Shown: positions 501 to 24,623 of the stretch, in pieces | Position numbering within the stretch: the stretch's first letter is position 1 | Layout: every line of letters begins with the position of its first letter | DNA from: Alphaproteobacteria bacterium | Lineage (GTDB): Bacteria; Pseudomonadota; Alphaproteobacteria; Rs-D84 | DNA length: 40,814 bases | Reading direction: 5' to 3' | NCBI GenBank assembly: GCA_017451625.1 | Contig: JAFTNY010000014.1 | Coordinates: 1 to 40,814 of the forward strand | Notes under the pieces: model-generated | Database searches by the model: none | What the model was told of the DNA's origin: nothing | What the model saw: only the letters and a program-made list of their open reading frames with translations | Program-made: the position numbers and the translations under genes

Positions 501-529
501 TTGAAATTTTATTTATCGTGTCGTATAAT
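501..529 (+). promoter_or_regulatory. Sigma70-type promoter for leader 1 and Cys-rich gene A
   Basis: TTGAAA (501-506), 17 bp spacer, TATAAT (524-529). Confidence 0.8.
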
Positions 530-534
530 AACAG

Positions 535-781
535 CGAATCCAAAGGGATATTGGGTTCGGGACTTAGAAAATCCCATAACTATGCAGTGCGAAAATCGCA
601 TTGTTATCCGACAGAAACTTTGTCGGCGCATTTGCTGCGTCGTTTATTTTCTGTATCCCGACCATTTTCGGTCGGGAAGTCGTGGCCATATAACAGGGTT
701 CGCCCAAAATCCACGAGGTCATTCATAGTTATGATTTTTCTAACTTCCCGACCGTCATTTCCATGGCGGTTTTGTTTTTTC
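535..781 (+). ncRNA. Structured 5' leader with C4/CI-antisense-RNA-like architecture and terminal terminator (element 1)
   Basis: Hairpin 535-559. Target GGGA-CTTAGAAAA-TCCC plus CATAACTATG (559-584). Hairpin 624-642 followed by a T-rich tract. Switch hairpin TCCCGACC/GGTCGGGA (656-677). Perfect 12-bp stem CGGTCGGGAAGT/ACTTCCCGACCG (669-680/743-754) encloses CATAGTTATG and ATTTTTCTAA, which are complementary to the target. Terminator ACCGTCAT-TTCC-ATGGCGGT plus T-rich tract (751-780). Confidence 0.7.
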
Positions 782-804
782 AAAACACAAAGGGAGTATA
801 GAAA

Positions 805-1656
805 ATGAAAAAACTGATTAGAATATGCACAGGACTAACATTCTGTACCAACGCAAACGCCGGCACACTGGCCACCCAGTGCACATCACTGTTCCCAAAC
901 GCCCATTGCACAACATGGGACGAAAGCAACATCAACGTTTCAGGCAAACGATGCGTCTGCAAAACCTGCCCCAGCAGTTATCCAGACTCTTGGGTTCCAA
1001 ACACGACCAGTGGCGGATACACCTTGATTGCAGGTTGTCAATGCAGCAATTGTTCGTGCACGAACAACCCGGACACAACAAAAACCACCGGTACCTGCAC
1101 CTGTGGCAGCAGCGGTGCCGACTATTCCACATGCACCGCCGCATCAGCCAGCGCAGTGCGATGCAACGGCTCAACCGGCACCACCAACGGCGGATGCTAT
1201 TCATACAGTTATCTTTTAACTGTTGCCGGCCAATACTATTGCCGTCCATATTATGAACAATCATGCACCATCAGCAGTGCCGCCACCGCAAAAAAATACA
1301 GCAAATATTGTACCGCTGGATATGGCGATACATCGTACCTAGAATGCTTGGTAACCAGTTGCGGCACCGGCGCAACAATGAATGCAACCCGCACTGCATG
1401 TGTTTGCAAGGCCGGATACTATGGCTCTAATGGCAGCTGTAGAAAATGCAGCAAAGGTTATTACAAAGACAGCGTTGGCGACGCTGCAGATTGCACAAAA
1501 TGCCCAACAGCCAATGGCACAACCGGCACCACCGCCGGCGAAGGTTCAACATCCATTACCGATTGCTATATCCCCGCAACCCACGAATGGACCAATTCGG
1601 ATGAAAAAGGCGAATACACAGCACATTTTACCAATGACTGTTATTACAATGAATAA
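805..1656 (+). CDS. Exported Cys/Thr/Gly-rich protein A with C-terminal ephrin-receptor-like (GCC2/GCC3-type) Cys module
   Basis: GGGAG RBS; MKK signal peptide ending ANA; about 29 Cys in 283 aa; CKAGYYG, CTKCP, GSTSITDCYIP and CYY C-terminus shared with 20862-21491. Confidence 0.85.
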   Translation: MKKLIRICTGLTFCTNANAGTLATQCTSLFPNAHCTTWDESNINVSGKRCVCKTCPSSYPDSWVPNTTSGGYTLIAGCQCSNCSCTNNPDTTKTTGTCTCGSSGADYSTCTAASASAVRCNGSTGTTNGGCYSYSYLLTVAGQYYCRPYYEQSCTISSAATAKKYSKYCTAGYGDTSYLECLVTSCGTGATMNATRTACVCKAGYYGSNGSCRKCSKGYYKDSVGDAADCTKCPTANGTTGTTAGEGSTSITDCYIPATHEWTNSDEKGEYTAHFTNDCYYNE

Positions 1657-1662
1657 ATCACA

Positions 1663-1690
1663 TCCCCCCAAAAAAACAAGGGGGGGGGGA
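1663..1690 (+). terminator. Hairpin after Cys-rich gene A
   Basis: TCCCCCC...GGGGGGGGGGA inverted repeat just past the stop; weak U-tract. Confidence 0.5.
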
Positions 1691-19798: not shown

Positions 19799-19892
19799 AC
19801 TCTCTTTCCCTTAACGCTTTGTTGCATTATACCACAAAATCACATAAAAATAAAGACAAATAAAAACAGCGGGCACCACGCCCGCCATTTTT

Positions 19893-20480
19893 TTATTTCT
19901 TCCATTTCCACTCAATATGCGATTCCGTCCCAGAAATCAACCGCTTGATATTTTCGCGATGCCGCCACATACACAGCAGTCCAATGCACAAGAACGCCCA
20001 ACCGACCTGCACACTAATAACAAAACCCAACACCGGAATCAAACAGAACACAATCACCGCCCCCAGCGATGAAATCCCACTGGTCAGTGCCACCGTCAGC
20101 CATTCAATTCCACACACCACAAAAGACATCGGACTGACCGCCAACAATACACCAAACAGCGACGAAATCCCCTTGCCGCCTTTAAACTTTAACCAAACGG
20201 GATAGCAATGTCCCACAATCGCCGCAAAACCGCACCATGCACCAAATGCATCGCCAGCAATATACCGTCCAACAAATACTGCGGCAATGGCCTTGGCCAT
20301 ATCCAGCAACCACACCAACCCCGCCATACGCAGTCCCCCGACGCGCATCACATTTGTGGCCCCGATATTACCACTGCCAACCTTGCGCAAATCCCCCTTG
20401 CCCAACATGCGCGTCAGCAACAGTCCCATTGGAATACTGCCCAGAAAATACGAAATTAAAACGCCCCAAAAATATATCAT
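19893..20480 (-). CDS. plsY: Glycerol-3-phosphate acyltransferase PlsY
   Basis: YFLGSIP, GSGNIGATN, GHCYPVWLKFKGGKG, RHRENIKRL. Confidence 0.96.
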   Translation of the reverse strand: MIYFWGVLISYFLGSIPMGLLLTRMLGKGDLRKVGSGNIGATNVMRVGGLRMAGLVWLLDMAKAIAAVFVGRYIAGDAFGAWCGFAAIVGHCYPVWLKFKGGKGISSLFGVLLAVSPMSFVVCGIEWLTVALTSGISSLGAVIVFCLIPVLGFVISVQVGWAFLCIGLLCMWRHRENIKRLISGTESHIEWKWKK

Positions 20481-20553
20481 GTTATTTTTCCTTGATTTTA
20501 TGTTTGTTTTTTATAAAATACCAAAATCAAAACAAAAATAAAAGGAAAATAAC

Positions 20554-20814
20554 GTGGCAAATCATAAGTCATCTGAAAAAAGAGTTTTGGTTTCGGCCAA
20601 GAAAAACGCAATCAACACTGCGCGCCGCAGTGCGGTAAAGACAGCAACTAAAAAGGCATTGGTCGCCATTGAATCTGGGGACAAGGCCGCTGCAACAACC
20701 GCCGCCCGCAACGCAGAAAGCAAAATCATGAAATCTGCTGGCAAGGTTATGCCAAAAAAGCGTGCCGCACGCAAGATTTCACGTTTGGCCAAGAAAGTTT
20801 CCAAAATGGCATAA
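20554..20814 (+). CDS. rpsT: 30S ribosomal protein S20
   Basis: MANHKSSEKR...RSAVKT...AARKISRL; GTG start with AAGGA RBS. Confidence 0.95.
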   Translation: MANHKSSEKRVLVSAKKNAINTARRSAVKTATKKALVAIESGDKAAATTAARNAESKIMKSAGKVMPKKRAARKISRLAKKVSKMA

Positions 20815-20837
20815 TATTGCGTTTTAACTGCAAAATT

Positions 20838-20863
20838 AAAAACCGCCAATCGGCGGTTTTTTT
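20838..20863. terminator. Bidirectional intrinsic terminator
   Basis: AAAAACCGCCAATCGGCGGTTTTTTT between rpsT and Cys-rich gene B. Confidence 0.9.
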
Positions 20864-21491
20864 AATTCGTGTAATAACAATTTGATGTGTATTTTGCTGT
20901 CCCAGAACCAGTACCGTCTGAAAAAGAAACACTGGTACCCGATGGCATATAACACGATGTTATCGCCGTACTGCCCGCTGCACTGGTACCATATACACCG
21001 CCAGACGACGGACAACGAGTGCATCCTGATGTTCCATTTGACGAACTGCCATAATATCCAGCGGCGCAACGATAGGATGTTGCTTCGTTACACGTACCAC
21101 AATTGCATGTTCGTGTCACCTTCTTTTGATACCCCGTACCCGCCGCCGACCACGCGGTGTCAGATGTGCAGTCGGTACACTCTGCGCAAACAGATTGACA
21201 TGTTGTATAACTAACCGTTCCGCCTGTACATGGCACACTTACAGATTGCGTTTTTTCTTCGTACCCATCCGCACACCCAAAAGAACACGTCAATACCATA
21301 TAGTTATCATAGCAGGTTGCCGATGGATTCGCGTTTAAACCATTCCAACAATTAGCAACAGCATTCAGTTGAATATAACCAGTATCATTATAAGAACAAG
21401 CCGACGAATCGCAGTACGTCACCACAGCATCTACCCTTGATACCAGAAACAACATTCCGCCCATGGAACAAATAAAAAAATATTTTTTCAT
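20862..21491 (-). CDS. Exported Cys/Ser/Thr/Gly-rich protein B, paralog of 805-1656
   Basis: CAGGAG RBS before ATG 21491 (MKKYFF.. signal peptide ending VDA); CAAGYYG, CTRCP, GSTAITSCYMP, SD, CYYTN. Confidence 0.87.
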   Translation of the reverse strand: MKKYFFICSMGGMLFLVSRVDAVVTYCDSSACSYNDTGYIQLNAVANCWNGLNANPSATCYDNYMVLTCSFGCADGYEEKTQSVSVPCTGGTVSYTTCQSVCAECTDCTSDTAWSAAGTGYQKKVTRTCNCGTCNEATSYRCAAGYYGSSSNGTSGCTRCPSSGGVYGTSAAGSTAITSCYMPSGTSVSFSDGTGSGTAKYTSNCYYTN

Positions 21492-21523
21492 TTTCAATCT
21501 CCTGTTTTTTATTTTCATGAATG

Positions 21524-21740
21524 AAAAAACCACCCAGAAAATTTGAGTGGTCAGGAGGTTGATAGCAATCCGAAGAATTGTGTGCTTATTTATATATATC
21601 GCAACCCTCCTGACCCAATGGGTTCAGGAGTTTCTTTTTCGTCGTAATAATAAAAAAGACGCATCACGCGCGTCATTAAGTATGTATTCCGACGCTTCGG
21701 TACGGGCTATCACACCCCATCATAACAACACGTCATGACA
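21524..21740 (-). ncRNA. Structured 5' leader with C4/CI-antisense-RNA-like architecture and terminal terminator (element 2)
   Basis: Read on the minus strand: hairpin 21739-21719; target GGG-GTGTGATAG-CCC plus CCGAAG (21718-21695); hairpin GACGC..GCGTC plus T6 (21674-21652); switch hairpin CTCCTGAACCC/GGGTCAGGAG (21630-21607); stem GGTCAGGAGGGTTG/CAACCTCCTGACC (21615-21602/21561-21549) carrying CTTCGG and GCTATCA, complementary to the target; terminator ACCACTCA..TGGGTGGT plus T-run (21551-21524). Confidence 0.7.
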
Positions 21741-21745
21741 TTGAC

Positions 21746-21774
21746 ATTATACGAAAACAAAACGATAAAAGCAA
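21746..21774 (-). promoter_or_regulatory. Sigma70-type promoter for leader 2 and Cys-rich gene B
   Basis: Minus strand TTGCTT, 17 bp, TATAAT; same TCGTATAAT context as the promoter at 501-529. Confidence 0.78.
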
Positions 21775-21817
21775 ATGGTTAGATATAAAACATATACCTA
21801 AACAAACAATACACACC

Positions 21818-21999
21818 ACCCCTTGCTTGGCGTAAAATAAATTAGAATGATTTAGATAAAAGCAAATCGGGCAACGTAGTGTACAGACGCAAAAAAACAA
21901 CCCCTTGCATAGCGTAAAATAAAAGATAATGGCGCAGATGCAGGATGGGGCCGGCAACGTAGTGTACAGACGCTACATGAGTTGCCCGATTTGTTTTTA
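21818..21999. repeat. Palindromic repeat copy 2, within a tandem/inverted arrangement
   Basis: 21926-21986 matches 3617-3677; partial copy GGCAACGTAGTGTACAGACGC at 21870-21890; ACCCCTTGC..GCGTAAAATAAA at 21818 and 21900; inverted repeat AAAAGCAAATCGGGCAAC/GTTGCCCGATTTGTTTTT (21858-21875/21981-21998). Confidence 0.85.
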
Positions 22000-22020
22000 G
22001 ATAATTTATTATAATTTATT

Positions 22021-23649
22021 TTAGTTCAGTGGGGCGCCCCAATGCTGTTGAATACTACGCTCTACATCCATTGGGCTGACCAATACCTGCGGTGTCAGGA
22101 TAACAACCAACACTTCACGTGTGGCAGACGTTTCACGCGAACCAGACAACGCCATAAAGTTTGGATCACCCAGACCATAACGCGTATCTTCGTTTGTCTG
22201 CTTTTCAAACCCAGACACAACCAACATTTGCCCCGATTCCATGATAACTTCCTGCATAAAACTGCGTTCTTCTACCTCGGGCAACTGTAATGTCACTTCG
22301 CCAATCGTCTGGGTTGACATACGCAACAATTCACGCACCGACATACGGAACAACAACAAGATTTTTCCGTTTTCTAAAACATTCGGCAACAACTGCATTG
22401 TGAACCCTGTTTCCAAATCGTCCTGATCAACCGTACTGGATTCAACAGTTGTAAAGTTGCGCGATTCAAAACGTTTGATATAACCCGTTGTGCGCGTATT
22501 GCTGACCGGCGCAACACGATTTGAACGCGTTGTCACACCAACATTCGTCACCAATGATACCTTGCCCTGCTTGGCCAATGCTTCGATAAGTGCATTACTG
22601 CCTGCGGCACCTGACAATGAACCATTTGCAATCTGATCCGCGGTGTACGCCCCTTCGACCAACGTTCCATTTTCCAAATGCGTCGCCCCCGTCAATGCAG
22701 ACACTGTATTTGACAGAACCGCAATATTCATGGAACTGGCCTCGGTCGTGGCCAAGTTATTTTTCGGATTTGCAACAATATTCAATCCAGATGTCGAATT
22801 AATCGCCGCGGCCAAATTCAAACCAAACGCCGAATCATTCGAAATCGAAACCTGCAATACCTTAACATCAATGGTCACTAACTGGCTCAAGCGTTTATTT
22901 TGGCGTTCAATATATTCACCCACGCGCGCCAGTATCGATGGGGATGCCGTTACTGTAATCGTACCCAAACTGCGCGACACTGTAAAATCTGCATTATCAC
23001 TTTTACCAATAATGGATGAAATTGCACTTTCTACTTCGTCCCATTCTTTTAGCGTTGATTCCAAGGACACTTCATTTGCATCATCTGTTGACACTGCGGT
23101 TTGATATGCAACCTCGGTCCCCAGCGCATATAATGTAAACGTCTTGGTTTCTGTTTCATAAAACACGATTGAATTTTTATCATAGTACCACAGCAAATCC
23201 AAATCCGTCGCCACCTGACTTAACAGTCCCGACAATTTACCCGTATACGCCACATTAACCAACTTCTTTAATTTATCGGCCGACACCTGCCCATCTATTT
23301 TAACAGGAATCCCTGTAATTGAATAAATATCATTGGCCAAAACCTGCAACGACACCGACTCATTCAGCAAAATCGTAACCCCTGTATCCGTTTCAAATTG
23401 CGACGGCAGATTGTTTCGATGTTCCAACACCATCGATTTATTCCCCAGCCATACGCCTTCGGACATAGACACTGTATCACCACTGGCCACCTTGGCGCGT
23501 GGATTTTTTGCCATTTCAAATGCATCATATGCATTAACAAAATCCTGATCCACAGATGCCGCCACCTTGGCAGACTCTTTTCTGGCACACCCAGTGATTG
23601 CAGCCACCGCCAGCGCACCGAAAATCAAAAACTTCATGGAAATTCTCAT
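22021..23649 (-). CDS. Lipoprotein secretin, type IVb pilus (PilN/BfpB/TcpC-like)
   Basis: Lipobox ITG-C; GTITVTASP, QNKRLSQLVTIDVKVLQV, ALAKQGKVS, ETGFTMQLLP, LQLPEV, SGQMLVVSGFE, VVILTP secretin motifs. Confidence 0.88.
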   Translation of the reverse strand: MRISMKFLIFGALAVAAITGCARKESAKVAASVDQDFVNAYDAFEMAKNPRAKVASGDTVSMSEGVWLGNKSMVLEHRNNLPSQFETDTGVTILLNESVSLQVLANDIYSITGIPVKIDGQVSADKLKKLVNVAYTGKLSGLLSQVATDLDLLWYYDKNSIVFYETETKTFTLYALGTEVAYQTAVSTDDANEVSLESTLKEWDEVESAISSIIGKSDNADFTVSRSLGTITVTASPSILARVGEYIERQNKRLSQLVTIDVKVLQVSISNDSAFGLNLAAAINSTSGLNIVANPKNNLATTEASSMNIAVLSNTVSALTGATHLENGTLVEGAYTADQIANGSLSGAAGSNALIEALAKQGKVSLVTNVGVTTRSNRVAPVSNTRTTGYIKRFESRNFTTVESSTVDQDDLETGFTMQLLPNVLENGKILLLFRMSVRELLRMSTQTIGEVTLQLPEVEERSFMQEVIMESGQMLVVSGFEKQTNEDTRYGLGDPNFMALSGSRETSATREVLVVILTPQVLVSPMDVERSIQQHWGAPLN

Positions 23650-23681
23650 ATCTCTTTTCTCCTACGGCATCTAACCAGATA

Positions 23682-24623
23682 TTATTCTTCGGTTGTCGAT
23701 ATAACCAGCACTCTATTACCTTTATAGAACTTTGCATATGGGATTGGTGTCGCACGACCAAAGTTTCGCACCAACGCAGACGCTACATCAACAAAGCGTC
23801 CTTTGAACACCGCGCTGGCCTCAATCGGATATTCACGCGATGTCGTCCAGACTAAATCCCACCCCTCTTTATTACACCACGACTGCAAAACTTCACGCAG
23901 GGTCTGACCATTTGCAACAACCCACGAACGAACCTGATCCGTCAACACCGCCGGTGCTTCGGCATCGGCAGACGCATCAACACCAAATTCTGTTTCTTCG
24001 GAAATAACAACCGTACCATCACCTGACGTATTCGAAATATTCATACCATCTGCGGTTGTACCTTCGATTTTCATCCCATTGCGCACTGCAAACGCTTCGT
24101 AGCCATCTGCATATTTACCACAGTTCTTGCGACCACTGCGCGACACAGTTAAAACATTACCACCATCATCTTCCAGCACCTCGCGATGCAACAACGGCAT
24201 CTCGGACGCACCACTGCATTCATCATCAAACCCAACTGGAACTTGTGTCCCATGCAGCATATTTGCCCCACCAGACCATCCTGCAAATTCGCCACGCGCC
24301 CCCAGATTGAAATTATTTTCAACAACCAAATCTGCGCCAATCTTGGACACAATACGAATATTATCTTCCTGCTTTGTCTTGGAACACAACGCCCCTTCAC
24401 AGGCCACTTCTACGTCTGCATCCGACCCTGCCAATGGCCACGCCGGCACTTCTTGTGCCACATCAACCTGTGTGGTTTCAATCTGTTCATATTCACCACC
24501 GTCGGTTATAACATCCTGTTCATAAAACACCTCGGACGTGACGACCTGTGGCAACGATTCCGCGGCAAAGCAATAGCCAGCCGCCGTTGCAAACATTGCG
24601 ACAATCAAAATCTTGCGGAACAT
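23682..24623 (-). CDS. Exported protein with C-terminal TcpQ-like domain (PilL/TcpQ-type pilus accessory)
   Basis: Signal peptide, acidic linker, WVVANGQTLREVLQSW..GWDLVW..YPIEA..FKGRF..FYKGNRVLVI; directly upstream of the secretin. Confidence 0.8.
   Translation of the reverse strand: MFRKILIVAMFATAAGYCFAAESLPQVVTSEVFYEQDVITDGGEYEQIETTQVDVAQEVPAWPLAGSDADVEVACEGALCSKTKQEDNIRIVSKIGADLVVENNFNLGARGEFAGWSGGANMLHGTQVPVGFDDECSGASEMPLLHREVLEDDGGNVLTVSRSGRKNCGKYADGYEAFAVRNGMKIEGTTADGMNISNTSGDGTVVISEETEFGVDASADAEAPAVLTDQVRSWVVANGQTLREVLQSWCNKEGWDLVWTTSREYPIEASAVFKGRFVDVASALVRNFGRATPIPYAKFYKGNRVLVISTTEE

What the first reader, a model, noticed from the sequence alone, without database searches (positions are those of the whole stretch)
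21491..21774. Second leader with the same architecture but different pairing sequences: a possible gene-specific RNA switch family
Seen: 20 kb away on the other strand, the paralogous gene has the same ordered parts: promoter ending TCGTATAAT, 5' hairpin, GGG-loop-CCC target, GCG-rich hairpin plus T-tract, switch hairpin, GGTC(A/G)GGA.. / ..TCC(T/C)GACC stem, overlapping terminator, RBS. Stem changes are compensatory (GGTCGGGA/TCCCGACC versus GGTCAGGA/TCCTGACC). The antisense/target patches are wholly different (TTAGAAAA plus CATAACTATG versus TGATAGC plus CCGAAG), yet each stays complementary to its own leader and not to the other. Inference: these are orthogonal keys, like P1 versus P7 heteroimmunity. 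They could let each member of a dispersed surface-protein family be switched independently, a possible RNA-based phase or antigenic variation system needing no DNA rearrangement. I know of no description of this but cannot search.
Basis: partly seen in the sequence, partly recalled or inferred. Interest (0 to 1): 0.9.

Follow-up and report, generated by a model that had tools for sequence, protein, structure and literature searches.

The report
Multi-copy c4-like antisense RNA leader
This stretch is one of at least 27 copies in a tiny gut-symbiont genome of a phage-type (c4-like) antisense-RNA leader that carries its own matching target and a terminator switch in front of mostly surface-protein genes.

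Summary
Leader B (21774-21491, minus strand) and leader A (501-805, plus strand) share every listed part, and their patches are complementary only within each leader.

It is not a two-member curiosity. The 0.89-Mb genome, whose relatives are titled Candidatus Enterousia, holds at least 27 copies. The family was found in 105 of 107 genomes of the genus searched, with 48 matches to the type I model in one of them.

The 3' domain belongs to the Rfam sRNA-Xcc1 family, which has the same fold as the phage P1/P7 c4 antisense RNA. Ordinary sRNA-Xcc1 loci of other Proteobacteria share the same upstream target module. They also carry a second target at the ribosome-binding site, and four of ten tested sit before phage antirepressor or Rha genes.

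The Enterousia copies lack that downstream target. They have two further features:
- a terminator (T2) that overlaps helix P1;
- an upstream copy (S5') of the P1 3' strand, which covaries three ways with the other two strands and so marks two mutually exclusive helices.

The genes downstream are diverse:
- cysteine-rich secreted proteins;
- lipoproteins;
- autotransporters;
- glycosyltransferases;
- small HTH proteins.

My best reading is a self-addressed antisense attenuator derived from phage immunity modules. Independent, phase-like switching of each gene remains untested.

The parts
21746..21774 (-). Promoter of leader B: -35-like TTGCTT (21774-21769), 17-nt spacer, -10 TATAAT (21751-21746)
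   Evidence: Sequence read. TCGTATAAT located. A -10-like hexamer sits at the matching place in about 22 of 25 copies (counted by eye). The -35 matches only 3 of 6 and the scan did not list it.
21719..21739 (-). H1, the 5' hairpin
   Evidence: Present in the minimum-free-energy fold. A hairpin is seen at this place in the copies printed.
21695..21718 (-). Target module: GGGG, X = TGATAGC (21712-21706), CCC, then Y = CCGAAG (21700-21695)
   Evidence: X is complementary to X' at 7 of 7 positions, and Y to Y' at 6 of 6. The same module occurs in ordinary sRNA-Xcc1 loci.
21640..21694 (-). H2: outer stem CGTCG/CGACG enclosing T1, a GC hairpin (21674-21658) followed by a T tract (21657-21652)
   Evidence: Called terminator-like; fold. 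The insert is missing from the short type II copies.
21620..21630 (-). S5': an upstream near-copy of the P1 3' strand. It pairs with the P1 5' strand to form the 'switch hairpin'.
   Evidence: The hairpin is in the minimum-free-energy fold of 53 of 55 leaders.
21606..21615 (-). S3': the P1 5' strand, GGTCAGGAGG. It starts with GGT, the GGW motif reported as the RNase P cutting site of c4.
   Evidence: The GGW motif is taken from PMC5320573.
21560..21605 (-). Core of the c4-like domain: H4 (about 21605-21581), H5 (21580-21566) with Y' = CTTCGG (21575-21570) in its loop, and single-stranded X' = GCTATCA (21566-21560)
   Evidence: Model R1 scores 74.8 bits here. Sister copies match RF02221.
21549..21558 (-). 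S3'': the P1 3' strand, CCTCCTGACC
   Evidence: P1 cells are 99.7% paired across 42 distinct type II sequences.
21524..21552 (-). T2: an intrinsic-terminator-like hairpin plus T tract. Its 5' arm begins at GACC, the last four bases of the P1 3' strand.
   Evidence: Of 53 copies with a hairpin and T run, 41 show such an overlap of at least 2 nt.
20862..21503 (-). Ribosome-binding site AGGAG (21503-21499) and coding sequence 21491-20862: 209 aa, signal-peptide-like N-terminus, 9.6% cysteine, no Pfam family
501..807 (+). Leader A (type I):
- promoter TTGAAA-17-TATAAT, 501-529
- H1, 536-558
- GGGAC, X = TTAGAAAA (564-571), TCCC
- Y = CATAACTATG, 575-584
- T1, 624-652
- S5', 656-663
- S3', 670-680
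- Y', 724-733
- X', 736-743
- S3'', 743-753
- T2, 750-781
- ATG at 805
   Evidence: Model R2 scores 128.5 bits.
805..1656 (+). Paralogous gene for a cysteine-rich secreted protein (283 aa, 10.2% cysteine)

Best explanation
Leader B is one member of a large chromosomal family of leaders: at least 27 copies in this genome, of two subtypes. The family descends from the c4 / sRNA-Xcc1 type of phage antisense-RNA control module.

Each unit carries, in order:
- its own promoter;
- a 5' target module, with X in the loop of a GGG...CCC hairpin and Y beside it;
- a c4-like antisense domain: helix P1 enclosing H4 and H5, with Y' in the H5 loop and X' single-stranded;
- a terminator, T2.

In ordinary members of the family, the antisense loop also covers the ribosome-binding site of the gene downstream. 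In Enterousia that downstream target is missing, and the output appears to have moved to transcription termination. The P1 5' strand can pair in two ways:
- with an upstream copy of its partner (S5'), which gives the 'closed' form and leaves the full T2 hairpin able to form;
- with the true P1 3' strand, which takes the first bases of T2 and gives the c4 fold with a weakened terminator.

The copy-specific pairing of X'/Y' with X/Y may occur within one transcript, or between a processed small RNA and a new transcript of the same locus. I infer that this pairing biases the choice between the two forms, and so sets how much transcription runs on into the gene.

Shown here:
- homology to the sRNA-Xcc1 family;
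- the architecture;
- covariation of all the helices, including the two alternative ones;
- the overlap of P1 with T2;
- the copy number;
- the kinds of gene downstream.

Inferred, not shown:
- that T2 terminates;
- that read-through is regulated;
- which way the antisense pairing acts;
- processing by RNase P.
For: Family size:
- Repeated nhmmer searches found 25 copies in the genome. Models R1 and R2 added two more.
- R1 matched 105 of 107 genomes of the genus and 125 of 151 in the order.
- R2 matched 34 of 40 genomes of the genus, with 48 matches in one of them.

Homology:
- RF02221 matched over its full length in 9 of 20 loci at E < 1; one scored above the gathering cutoff, 56.4 against 53 bits.
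- R1 and R2 each detect the other subtype, including leaders A and B.
- Ordinary sRNA-Xcc1 loci have the same X hairpin, Y and T1 upstream: 18 of 19 show at least 7 nt of complementarity to their own upstream region, and 12 of 19 also to their own downstream region.
- Four of ten tested downstream genes encode Bro-N/P22_AR_C or Rha proteins.

Pairing:
- X:X' is perfect at 7 of 7 positions in 47 of 56 copies.
- The longest Watson-Crick run between a copy's own Y and Y' averages 7.96 nt, against 3.98 between different copies.
- Leader B's nearest relatives keep the pairing with different sequences.

The switch:
- S5', S3' and S3'' covary three ways across five sequence classes.
- P1 is 99.7% paired and the S hairpin 91.9% paired; 0 of 500 shuffles reached the whole-structure measures in either call.
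- In 41 of 53 copies T2 uses at least 2 of the last 4 bases of the P1 3' strand.
- Full leaders fold with the S hairpin in 53 of 55, the within-molecule X:X' in 52 of 55, and P1 in 0 of 55. RNAs that begin at the P1 5' strand form P1 in 50 of 55.

No room for a separate promoter: the start codon lies 41-59 nt after P1 in 21 of 25 copies that have an ORF.

Action between molecules is plausible. In L140 and L141 a bare small-RNA copy with its own promoter follows a full leader and carries a matching X' and Y'.

Precedent for termination control: the P4 CI RNA pairs with seqA and seqC in its own leader and causes termination, as described in PMC4825925 (passages read).
Against: - RF02221 did not match leader B itself at E <= 5. 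Its membership rests on the chain of homology through R1 and R2.
- Rfam's C4 and isrK models matched none of the copies.
- Blocking the target module in silico moved only 12 of 55 leaders to P1, so thermodynamics alone does not show that the antisense pairing drives the switch.
- With RNAduplex, a copy's own target was the best partner in only 19 of 27.
- The 5' hairpin region is at least as divergent as Y' among closely related copies. The variability of Y therefore needs no selection for specificity.
- There is no direct RNA evidence. The metatranscriptome data were assembled contigs and cannot show ends, strand or read-through.
- T1 is absent from the short type II copies, so it cannot be essential.
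Confidence: 0.55

Rival explanations
1. The leader is a structured RNA with no 'address' function. X:X' and Y:Y' form an ordinary long-range closing helix within one molecule. They differ between copies only through drift and compensatory change. T2 is a leaky terminator that acts the same way at all times, so the downstream genes are simply expressed at a fixed low level.
For: - The minimum-free-energy folds contain the within-molecule X:X' helix in 52 of 55 leaders.
- The 5' hairpin region diverges as fast as Y'.
- No target is detectable downstream or elsewhere: own and cross complementarity are equal downstream, and combined X..Y sites occur almost only in a copy's own locus.
Against: - This does not explain why two mutually exclusive partners of the P1 5' strand are both conserved and covary.
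- It does not explain why the domain is homologous to antisense RNAs that act between molecules.
- It does not explain the bare small-RNA copy with a matching key beside a full leader.
Confidence: 0.22
2. The conserved loops of H4 (AUAUAYA...AAUAAG in type II; UUAUACAACAGGG...CCCRAAG in type I) bind a protein or small ligand, and that binding is the real regulatory input. The X/Y pairing only provides scaffolding.
For: The H4 loop sequences are the most conserved unpaired parts in both subtypes and in RF02221.
Against: No known aptamer class matches. No candidate binding protein was identified. The same loops are conserved in phage c4-type RNAs, which act by base pairing (PMC5320573).
Confidence: 0.1
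3. The units are independent genes for small RNAs that act on other molecules. Their real targets lie elsewhere (host or phage RNAs), and the genes downstream are unrelated neighbours.
For: T2 would end a small RNA of 170-250 nt. A. baumannii carries 21 c4-like small RNAs of unknown target (PMC5320573).
Against: - The spacing from P1 to a ribosome-binding site and start codon is fixed at 41-59 nt in 21 of 25 copies, with no room for another promoter.
- Complementarity is to the copy's own leader.
Confidence: 0.06
4. The unit is a selfish or mobile promoter-leader cassette, comparable to integron cassettes that carry sRNA-Xcc1. It spreads by recombination and has little regulatory meaning.
For: - Leader subtype and gene family are shuffled: type I and type II leaders both precede cysteine-rich paralogues.
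- One contig from an RNA library joins 20863 to 21851, skipping the whole unit.
- sRNA-Xcc1 lies in Xanthomonas integron cassettes (bioRxiv 10.1101/2025.06.18.660453).
Against: - No flanking repeats or recombination sites were looked for or seen.
- The internal structure is under strong constraint to stay paired.
- The unit always faces a gene at a fixed distance.
Confidence: 0.07

Closest known systems
c4 antisense RNA of phages P1 and P7 (immI operon; Rfam RF01695)
   Same: - A three-helix small RNA embedded in the leader of the operon it controls.
- Two short recognition patches, one in a loop and one single-stranded.
- P1 and P7 differ by a few bases with matching changes in the target, which gives heteroimmunity.
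- P1 starts with GGW, the reported RNase P cutting site.

   Basis: passages of PMC5320573 and PMC8198154. That complementary a1/b1 sites also lie upstream of c4 is my recollection and was not checked.
   Different: - RF01695 gave no match.
- There is no target at the ribosome-binding site of the downstream gene.
- A terminator overlaps P1, and there is an upstream decoy strand, S5'.
- The units are chromosomal, number 27 or more per genome, and precede surface and other cellular genes rather than an antirepressor.
sRNA-Xcc1 (Rfam RF02221) loci of other Proteobacteria
   Same: - Full-length matches to the covariance model.
- The same upstream GGGG-X-CCCC hairpin, Y, and a GC hairpin with T tract.
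- The same position as the leader of a gene.
   Different: - Ordinary loci occur at 1-6 per genome: 40 of 151 genomes in a sample of the phylum had a match.
- They carry a second Y copy between the Shine-Dalgarno sequence and the ATG.
- They have no T-run terminator after the small RNA.
- They precede antirepressor or Rha genes in 4 of 10 tested, or symE (bioRxiv 10.1101/2025.06.18.660453, passages read).
- In print the family is described only as an 87-nt small RNA acting on other molecules.
CI RNA immunity of satellite phage P4
   Same: An antisense RNA is processed from a leader. It pairs with a complementary site upstream (seqA) in the same leader, and the outcome is transcription termination (PMC4825925 discussion).
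   Different: P4 also uses a downstream site, seqC. It is a single locus in a mobile element. Sequence homology to P4 was not tested here.
IsrK of the Salmonella Gifsy-1 prophage (RF01394)
   Same: One promoter gives both a short, terminated small RNA and a read-through mRNA. The short form acts on the long form (PMC4825925 abstract and passages).
   Different: IsrK activates translation of the downstream ORF and is a single prophage locus. RF01394 gave no match here.
Group 1 C4-like small RNAs of Acinetobacter baumannii AB5075
   Same: Many chromosomal copies (21) of a c4-like fold with a variable recognition loop. There is an upstream 'Region 1' hairpin, and read coverage rises at a GGW motif (PMC5320573, section 16 read in full).
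   Different: - They are described as small-RNA genes, not as leaders of protein-coding genes.
- The passages I read report no complementary target within the same unit, no terminator switch and no link to surface-protein genes. The supplementary figures were not seen.
- Density is about 21 copies per genome there. Here it is 27 in 0.89 Mb.
Classical transcription attenuators and T-box leaders
   Same: Mutually exclusive helices, one of which overlaps an intrinsic terminator. As in T-box leaders, many copies per genome carry a gene-specific recognition sequence.
   Different: The recognition partner is encoded in the same transcript, not in a tRNA, a ribosome or a metabolite. There is no leader peptide and no match to a T-box model.

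Membership tests
Rfam RF02221 sRNA-Xcc1 | Covariance-model score at or above the gathering cutoff (53 bits) | tested here: inconclusive
   One of 20 sister loci scored above the cutoff (L013, 56.4 bits). Nine of 20 scored E < 1, all as full-length 1-87 matches. Leader B itself had no match at E <= 5. It is linked to the family through R2 (35.5 bits) and R1 (74.8 bits).
Rfam RF02221 sRNA-Xcc1 | P1 closing helix, two internal hairpins, and a single-stranded patch before the P1 3' strand | tested here: met
   Alignments to the family consensus. On 42 distinct type II sequences, 98.4% of cells are paired against 90.5% in shuffles, with 0 of 500 shuffles as high; 10 pairs change on both sides.
c4 / sRNA-Xcc1 type leader | A complementary target module upstream of the antisense RNA in the same transcript | tested here: met
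   X:X' is perfect at 7 of 7 positions in 47 of 56 copies and scores at least 6 in all 56. Own Y runs average 7.96 nt against 3.98 between copies. In ordinary loci, 18 of 19 have at least 7 nt.
c4 antisense RNA (P1/P7) | Antisense loops complementary to the translation-initiation region of the downstream gene | tested here: not met
   Own and cross complementarity to the 100 nt downstream are equal: Y' 5.15 against 5.20, X' 5.15 against 4.76 (n = 26). Results for 29 relatives are similar.
c4 antisense RNA (P1/P7) | Match to Rfam RF01695 | tested here: not met
   No RF01695 row at E <= 1 in 20 loci or at E <= 10 in 4 loci.
c4 antisense RNA (P1/P7) | 5' maturation by RNase P at GGW at the base of P1 | not testable with these tools
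   In most copies P1 starts with GGT. The RNA data were contigs and carry no end information.
P4 CI-type immunity | Antisense pairing within the leader causes premature termination | not testable with these tools
   The pairing and the terminators are present. Whether pairing affects termination was not measured.
Transcription attenuator | Two mutually exclusive, conserved helices, one of which competes with an intrinsic terminator | tested here: met
   Three-way covariation of S5', S3' and S3''. P1 is 99.7% paired and the S hairpin 91.9% paired. T2 overlaps P1 in 41 of 53 copies.
Known riboswitch or other Rfam cis-regulatory class | Match to a curated aptamer or leader model | tested here: not met
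   Only two tRNAs in the window reach gathering scores. E-value scans gave nothing consistent apart from RF02221.
Integron gene cassette | attC recombination site flanking the unit and an integrase nearby | not tested
   The only lead is one contig that skips the 987-nt unit.

The most novel reading that the evidence does not exclude
Each of the dozens of leaders is a self-addressed, two-state RNA switch.

- In the closed precursor, S5' masks P1 and the leader's own X/Y masks X'/Y'. Transcription stops at T2, and the RNA cannot mature.
- A rare fold into P1 allows processing to a free c4-like RNA.
- Through its private Y/X key, that RNA binds only new transcripts of its own locus. It keeps them in the P1 form, which reads through T2 and can itself be processed.

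This positive loop would give heritable ON/OFF states for individual adhesin, lipoprotein, glycosyltransferase and cysteine-rich surface genes with no change in DNA. It would amount to RNA-based phase variation in a reduced-genome gut symbiont.
Probability: 0.15. Interest if true: 0.92.

Novelty: new variant of a known kind. Interest (0 to 1): 0.7.

Why it matters
- It would show that a phage immunity device, a c4-type antisense RNA with its target, has been taken over wholesale by a cellular genome. One unit sits about every 33 kb in a 0.9-Mb genome, in front of the kinds of genes that host-associated bacteria usually vary: adhesins, lipoproteins, surface glycosyltransferases and secreted cysteine-rich proteins.
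- It widens the Rfam sRNA-Xcc1 entry from an 87-nt 'small RNA acting on other molecules' to a conserved leader of about 250 nt that contains its own target. That gives testable functions for hundreds of annotated copies in plant and animal pathogens.
- The three-way covarying switch, together with private recognition patches, offers a natural set of dozens of potentially orthogonal RNA regulators. This bears on gene-specific control in minimal genomes and could be useful as parts for synthetic biology.

Tried and rejected
RNAduplex on wide windows (193-nt upstream region against 34-nt antisense region) was too noisy: own -21.8 against cross -16.3 kcal/mol, with many spurious GC-rich duplexes. 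I replaced it with narrower modules and with register-free counts of Watson-Crick runs.

Sequence-only MAFFT alignments misaligned the helices between subtypes. I therefore built two subtype models, R1 and R2. The first alignment made with R1 (A5) contained reverse-strand false matches and was not used.

RNA evidence. Four metatranscriptome runs (X1-X4) were laid on 19800-23700.
- They are assembled contigs from mixed strains.
- The 3' domain (21503-21633) has depth in 3 of 4 runs, but the pieces continue into unlike sequence. They probably come from other copies.
- There is no cover over 21110-21371 of the coding sequence in any run, and next to none up to 21502.
- By the tool's own rules, none of this bears on expression or read-through, and I draw no conclusion from it.

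A test for faster evolution of Y'. Among pairs of type II copies with at least 95% backbone identity (34 pairs), only 41% share Y'. However, the 5' hairpin region is even less alike (0.65 against 0.78 identity). In addition, the segmentation failed for 8 of 43 copies, which were dropped. The test does not separate selection for specificity from drift.

A genome-wide search for other X..Y target sites found essentially only each copy's own locus. Each locus is counted twice, once as the target and once as the reverse complement of the antisense region. A few extra hits lie near chance level, about 0.35 expected per pattern by my own estimate.

I considered a leader peptide after the SD-like AGGAGG in P1 and rejected it by eye: the reading frames differ between copies. 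No tool call supports this.

The cysteine-rich protein has no Pfam family and gave no usable hit in the protein atlas.

The supplements of PMC5320573 (Figs S1-S3) and of the other papers were not seen. They may show whether the A. baumannii copies have targets within their own units.

Claims that something is not in print rest on these searches:
- 'sRNA-Xcc1': 24 papers held the term, of which 20 were listed; I saw no Enterousia title among those 20.
- 'Enterousia': 16 papers held the term, of which 15 were listed; none had a title or abstract about RNA leaders.
- 'C4 antisense RNA' / 'isrK'.
Full report
OBSERVATION. On the minus strand, leader B runs from a -10 TATAAT (21751-21746) to the ATG at 21491.
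- a 5' hairpin, H1 (21739-21719);
- GGGG-TGATAGC-CCC (21718-21704), followed by CCGAAG (21700-21695);
- a GC-rich hairpin with a T tract (21674-21652);
- the hairpin CTCCTGAACCC/GGGTCAGGAG;
- the long-range stem GGTCAGGAGG (21615-21606) with CCTCCTGACC (21558-21549);
- the patches CTTCGG (21575-21570) and GCTATCA (21566-21560);
- a terminator (21552-21524);
- AGGAG as the ribosome-binding site.

Leader A (501-807, plus strand) has the same order of parts but different patch sequences. Three results show this is more than chance:
- GGTCRGGA occurs 6 times against 0.91 expected.
- Both leaders fold with z about -5, and 0 of 200 shuffles fold as well.
- The scan calls both T1 and T2 terminator-like in both leaders, and each T2 stem starts at GACC, the end of the long-range stem.

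The two genes are paralogous: 39.7% identity over 68 aa, E = 7e-8.

A LARGE FAMILY. The window lies in an 892,698-bp assembly of 62 contigs that is 93.8% complete. Its GyrB is 96% identical to that of metagenome-assembled genomes titled Candidatus Enterousia. A paper describes this genus (order Rs-D84, Alphaproteobacteria) as having genomes under 1 Mb and a probable obligate symbiont or parasite lifestyle (PMC12306168, passages read).

Repeated nhmmer searches found 25 copies of the leader. Two covariance models built here added two more, which makes 27, or one per 33 kb. The models are R1 for type II leaders such as B and R2 for type I leaders such as A; each also detects the other subtype.
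- Across the order, R1 matched 125 of 151 genomes: 105 of 107 in the genus, 116 of 121 in the family, and 8 of 29 in the other families.
- R2 matched 34 of 40 genomes of the genus at E <= 1e-10, with 48 matches in one genome of about 1 Mb.

WHAT THE 3' DOMAIN IS. At gathering thresholds Rfam found only two tRNAs in the window. An E-value scan of 20 sister loci gave full-length (1-87) matches to RF02221, sRNA-Xcc1, in nine of them, one above the cutoff at 56.4 against 53 bits. The aligned structure consists of:
- P1, the GGTC.../...GACC stem;
- a hairpin with AUACAA and GAA bulges (H4);
- a second hairpin, H5, whose loop is Y';
- a single-stranded patch, which is X';
- the P1 3' strand.

Leader B itself was not matched at E <= 5. 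Its membership therefore rests on the chain of homology through R1 and R2. Rfam's C4 and isrK models matched nothing.

In a sample of 151 genomes from the phylum, RF02221 matched 40, at 1-6 copies each, and 0 of 14 control genomes.

I then read 19 of those ordinary loci. They share the whole plan of the leader:
- a promoter;
- a GGGG-X-CCCC hairpin whose loop is complementary to X';
- an adjacent Y complementary to the H5 loop;
- a GC hairpin with a T tract;
- the small RNA;
- a second Y copy between the Shine-Dalgarno sequence and the ATG of the next gene.

Complementarity to a locus's own sequence reached at least 7 nt upstream in 18 of 19 and downstream in 12 of 19. Four of ten tested downstream genes encode Bro-N/P22_AR_C or Rha proteins, which are typical of phage antirepressor genes. 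A preprint places sRNA-Xcc1 upstream of symE in Xanthomonas integron cassettes (10.1101/2025.06.18.660453, passages read).

This is the plan reported for c4 of P1/P7: an antisense RNA processed from the leader, whose loops cover the ribosome-binding site (PMC5320573, section 16 read). It also recalls the P4 CI RNA, which pairs with seqA upstream and seqC downstream and causes termination (PMC4825925, passages read).

WHAT IS DIFFERENT IN ENTEROUSIA.
1. No downstream target. Complementarity of Y' or X' to the 100 nt after T2 is no higher for a copy's own locus than for other loci: 5.15 against 5.20, and 5.15 against 4.76, with n = 26. The 29 relatives' copies give similar figures.
2. A terminator. 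A hairpin with a T run follows P1 in 53 of 56 copies. In 41 of those 53 it uses at least 2 of the last 4 bases of the P1 3' strand.
3. An upstream near-copy of the P1 3' strand. Every one of the 25 copies parsed carries S5', which forms a local hairpin with the P1 5' strand. The three strands change together in five classes: TCCCGACC/GGTCGGGA/TCCCGACC, CTCCTGACC/GGTCAGGAG/CTCCTGACC, CTCCAACC/GGTTGGAG/CTCCAACC, and two further variants. On 42 distinct type II sequences, P1 is 99.7% paired and the S hairpin 91.9% paired; in neither call did any of 500 shuffles reach the whole-structure measures.

Conservation of two mutually exclusive helices, one of which competes with a terminator, is the signature of an attenuator.

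Folding predictions agree:
- Full leaders adopt the S hairpin in 53 of 55, the within-molecule X:X' helix in 52 of 55, and P1 in 0 of 55.
- RNAs that begin at the P1 5' strand, as they would after a c4-like cut at GGU, form P1 in 50 of 55.
- Blocking the target module moves only 12 of 55 to P1, so the direction of control is not settled.

THE PATCHES.
- X:X' is perfect at 7 of 7 positions in 47 of 56 copies (own genome plus relatives), and X lies in the GGG...CC context.
- In this genome all 26 Y sequences differ. The longest Watson-Crick run between a copy's own Y and Y' averages 7.96 nt, against 3.98 between different copies; only 1.1% of cross pairs reach 7 nt.
- X is less varied, with 17 different 7-mers among the 26 copies.
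- With RNAduplex on 42-nt and 30-nt modules, own pairs score -18.9 against -10.5 kcal/mol for cross pairs. A copy's own target is the best partner in 19 of 27.
- Leader B's nearest relatives keep both pairings with other sequences. L004, for example, has the same X but CCAACG/CGTTGG in place of CCGAAG/CTTCGG.

The covariation is therefore real. It does not by itself show 'orthogonal keys', because a helix formed within one molecule would behave the same way. Among closely related copies the 5' hairpin region is at least as divergent as Y'.

One observation favours action between molecules. In two relatives (L140, L141) a complete leader is followed about 65 nt later by a second promoter (TTTGAA-17-TATAAT). 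This drives a bare small-RNA copy that has no target module and no S5'. Its X' and Y' match the target of the neighbouring leader, and in L141 they match it better than that leader's own Y' does.

DOWNSTREAM GENES. Among the 27 copies:
- 9 precede cysteine-rich proteins (8-10.6% cysteine) with signal-peptide-like N-termini. Seven of these, including the proteins of A and B, are related to one another by blastp.
- 3 precede lipoproteins.
- 1 precedes a protein with a YadA anchor.
- 1 precedes a protein of at least 1,078 aa with Chlam_PMP repeats.
- 2 precede glycosyltransferases (families GT8 and GT2).
- 1 precedes an Imm_superinfect protein.
- 3 precede paralogous proteins of about 60 aa that resemble HTH proteins.
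- The rest precede genes of unknown function, and 2 have no nearby ORF.

The start codon lies 41-59 nt after P1 in 21 of 25 copies with an ORF. By eye, about 22 of the 29 relatives' loci also begin with a signal-peptide-like sequence.

Leader subtype does not follow gene family: the protein behind the type I copy on C6 is 64% identical to leader B's protein. Leader and gene therefore behave as separate modules. The neighbours of A and B are housekeeping or pilus genes (DnaN, PlsY, secretin, TcpQ), not prophage genes.

The set of genes resembles the 'contingency' genes of host-adapted bacteria. That is an inference, not a result.

VERDICT. The element is a new, strongly amplified and rewired variant of a known kind, the c4 / sRNA-Xcc1 antisense leader. 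I read it as a self-addressed attenuator, with confidence 0.55. The main rival is a purely structural helix with a leaky terminator that is not regulated.

Prior art limits the novelty: the Rfam family itself, P1/P7 c4, P4 CI, IsrK, and the 21 C4-like small RNAs of A. baumannii (PMC5320573). In the searches listed under Tried and rejected, I found no description of three things:
- the conserved upstream target module of sRNA-Xcc1 loci;
- the S5'/P1/T2 switch;
- any such family in Enterousia.

RNA-based phase variation remains a possibility that the evidence does not exclude, at about 0.15.

Noticed in passing
window 21790-22030 (intergenic, between leader B's promoter and the end of the secretin gene): A second repeat family, with a unit of about 85-95 nt containing CCCCTTGC.TRGCGTAAAATAAA and GGCAACGTAGTGTACAGACGC; two units lie here. 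blastn finds related copies in about a dozen further places: C1:3606-3677, C53 (several), C24 (two), C9 (three), C16 and C2. In two metatranscriptome runs this stretch has the highest summed contig depth (94-125, against roughly 5-30 in the flanks) and many joints that skip or repeat 54-134 nt. Rfam has no convincing match.
   Followed up: partly
window 20863-21851: One contig of run X2 joins 20863 to 21851. It skips 987 nt, which is exactly promoter, leader B and its gene, and has 30 other letters in their place (tables 5 and 5c). The leader-gene unit may therefore be present in some related strains and absent in others.
   Followed up: no
L141 1430-1830 and L140 (the same arrangement): A tandem arrangement. 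A full leader is followed by a second promoter and a bare c4-like small-RNA copy that lacks both the target module and S5'. That copy is followed by a 63-aa ORF.
   Followed up: partly
L142-L161 (ordinary sRNA-Xcc1 loci of other Proteobacteria): The Rfam model covers only the last third of a conserved leader of about 250 nt. The upstream part holds a GGGG-X-CCCC hairpin, Y, and a conserved hairpin with a T tract (...CCGCACCCGTCAGACC...GCGGTATTTTTG in many loci). A second Y copy lies between the Shine-Dalgarno sequence and the ATG. Four of ten downstream proteins tested are Bro-N/P22_AR_C or Rha.
   Followed up: partly
window 1664-1690: Just after the stop codon of gene A lies a C6 run, A-rich spacer and G10 run (CCCCCC AAAAAAACAA GGGGGGGGGG). 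The terminator scan reports a hairpin there on the minus strand (1683-1664). A G10 tract is long enough for slipped-strand length variation.
   Followed up: no
genome G019 (same genus): 48 matches to the type I model at E <= 1e-10 in a genome of about 1.0 Mb, against 11 in the window's own genome at the same threshold. Copy number varies widely within the genus; several complete genomes had no match at that threshold.
   Followed up: no
window 20862-21491 and 805-1656; contigs C56, C6, C2, C41, C7, C5, C53: A family of small secreted proteins with 8-10.6% cysteine. The two members in the window had no Pfam match, nor did the C5 and C53 members; the other five were not scanned. The atlas gave no usable hit for leader B's protein.
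   Followed up: partly
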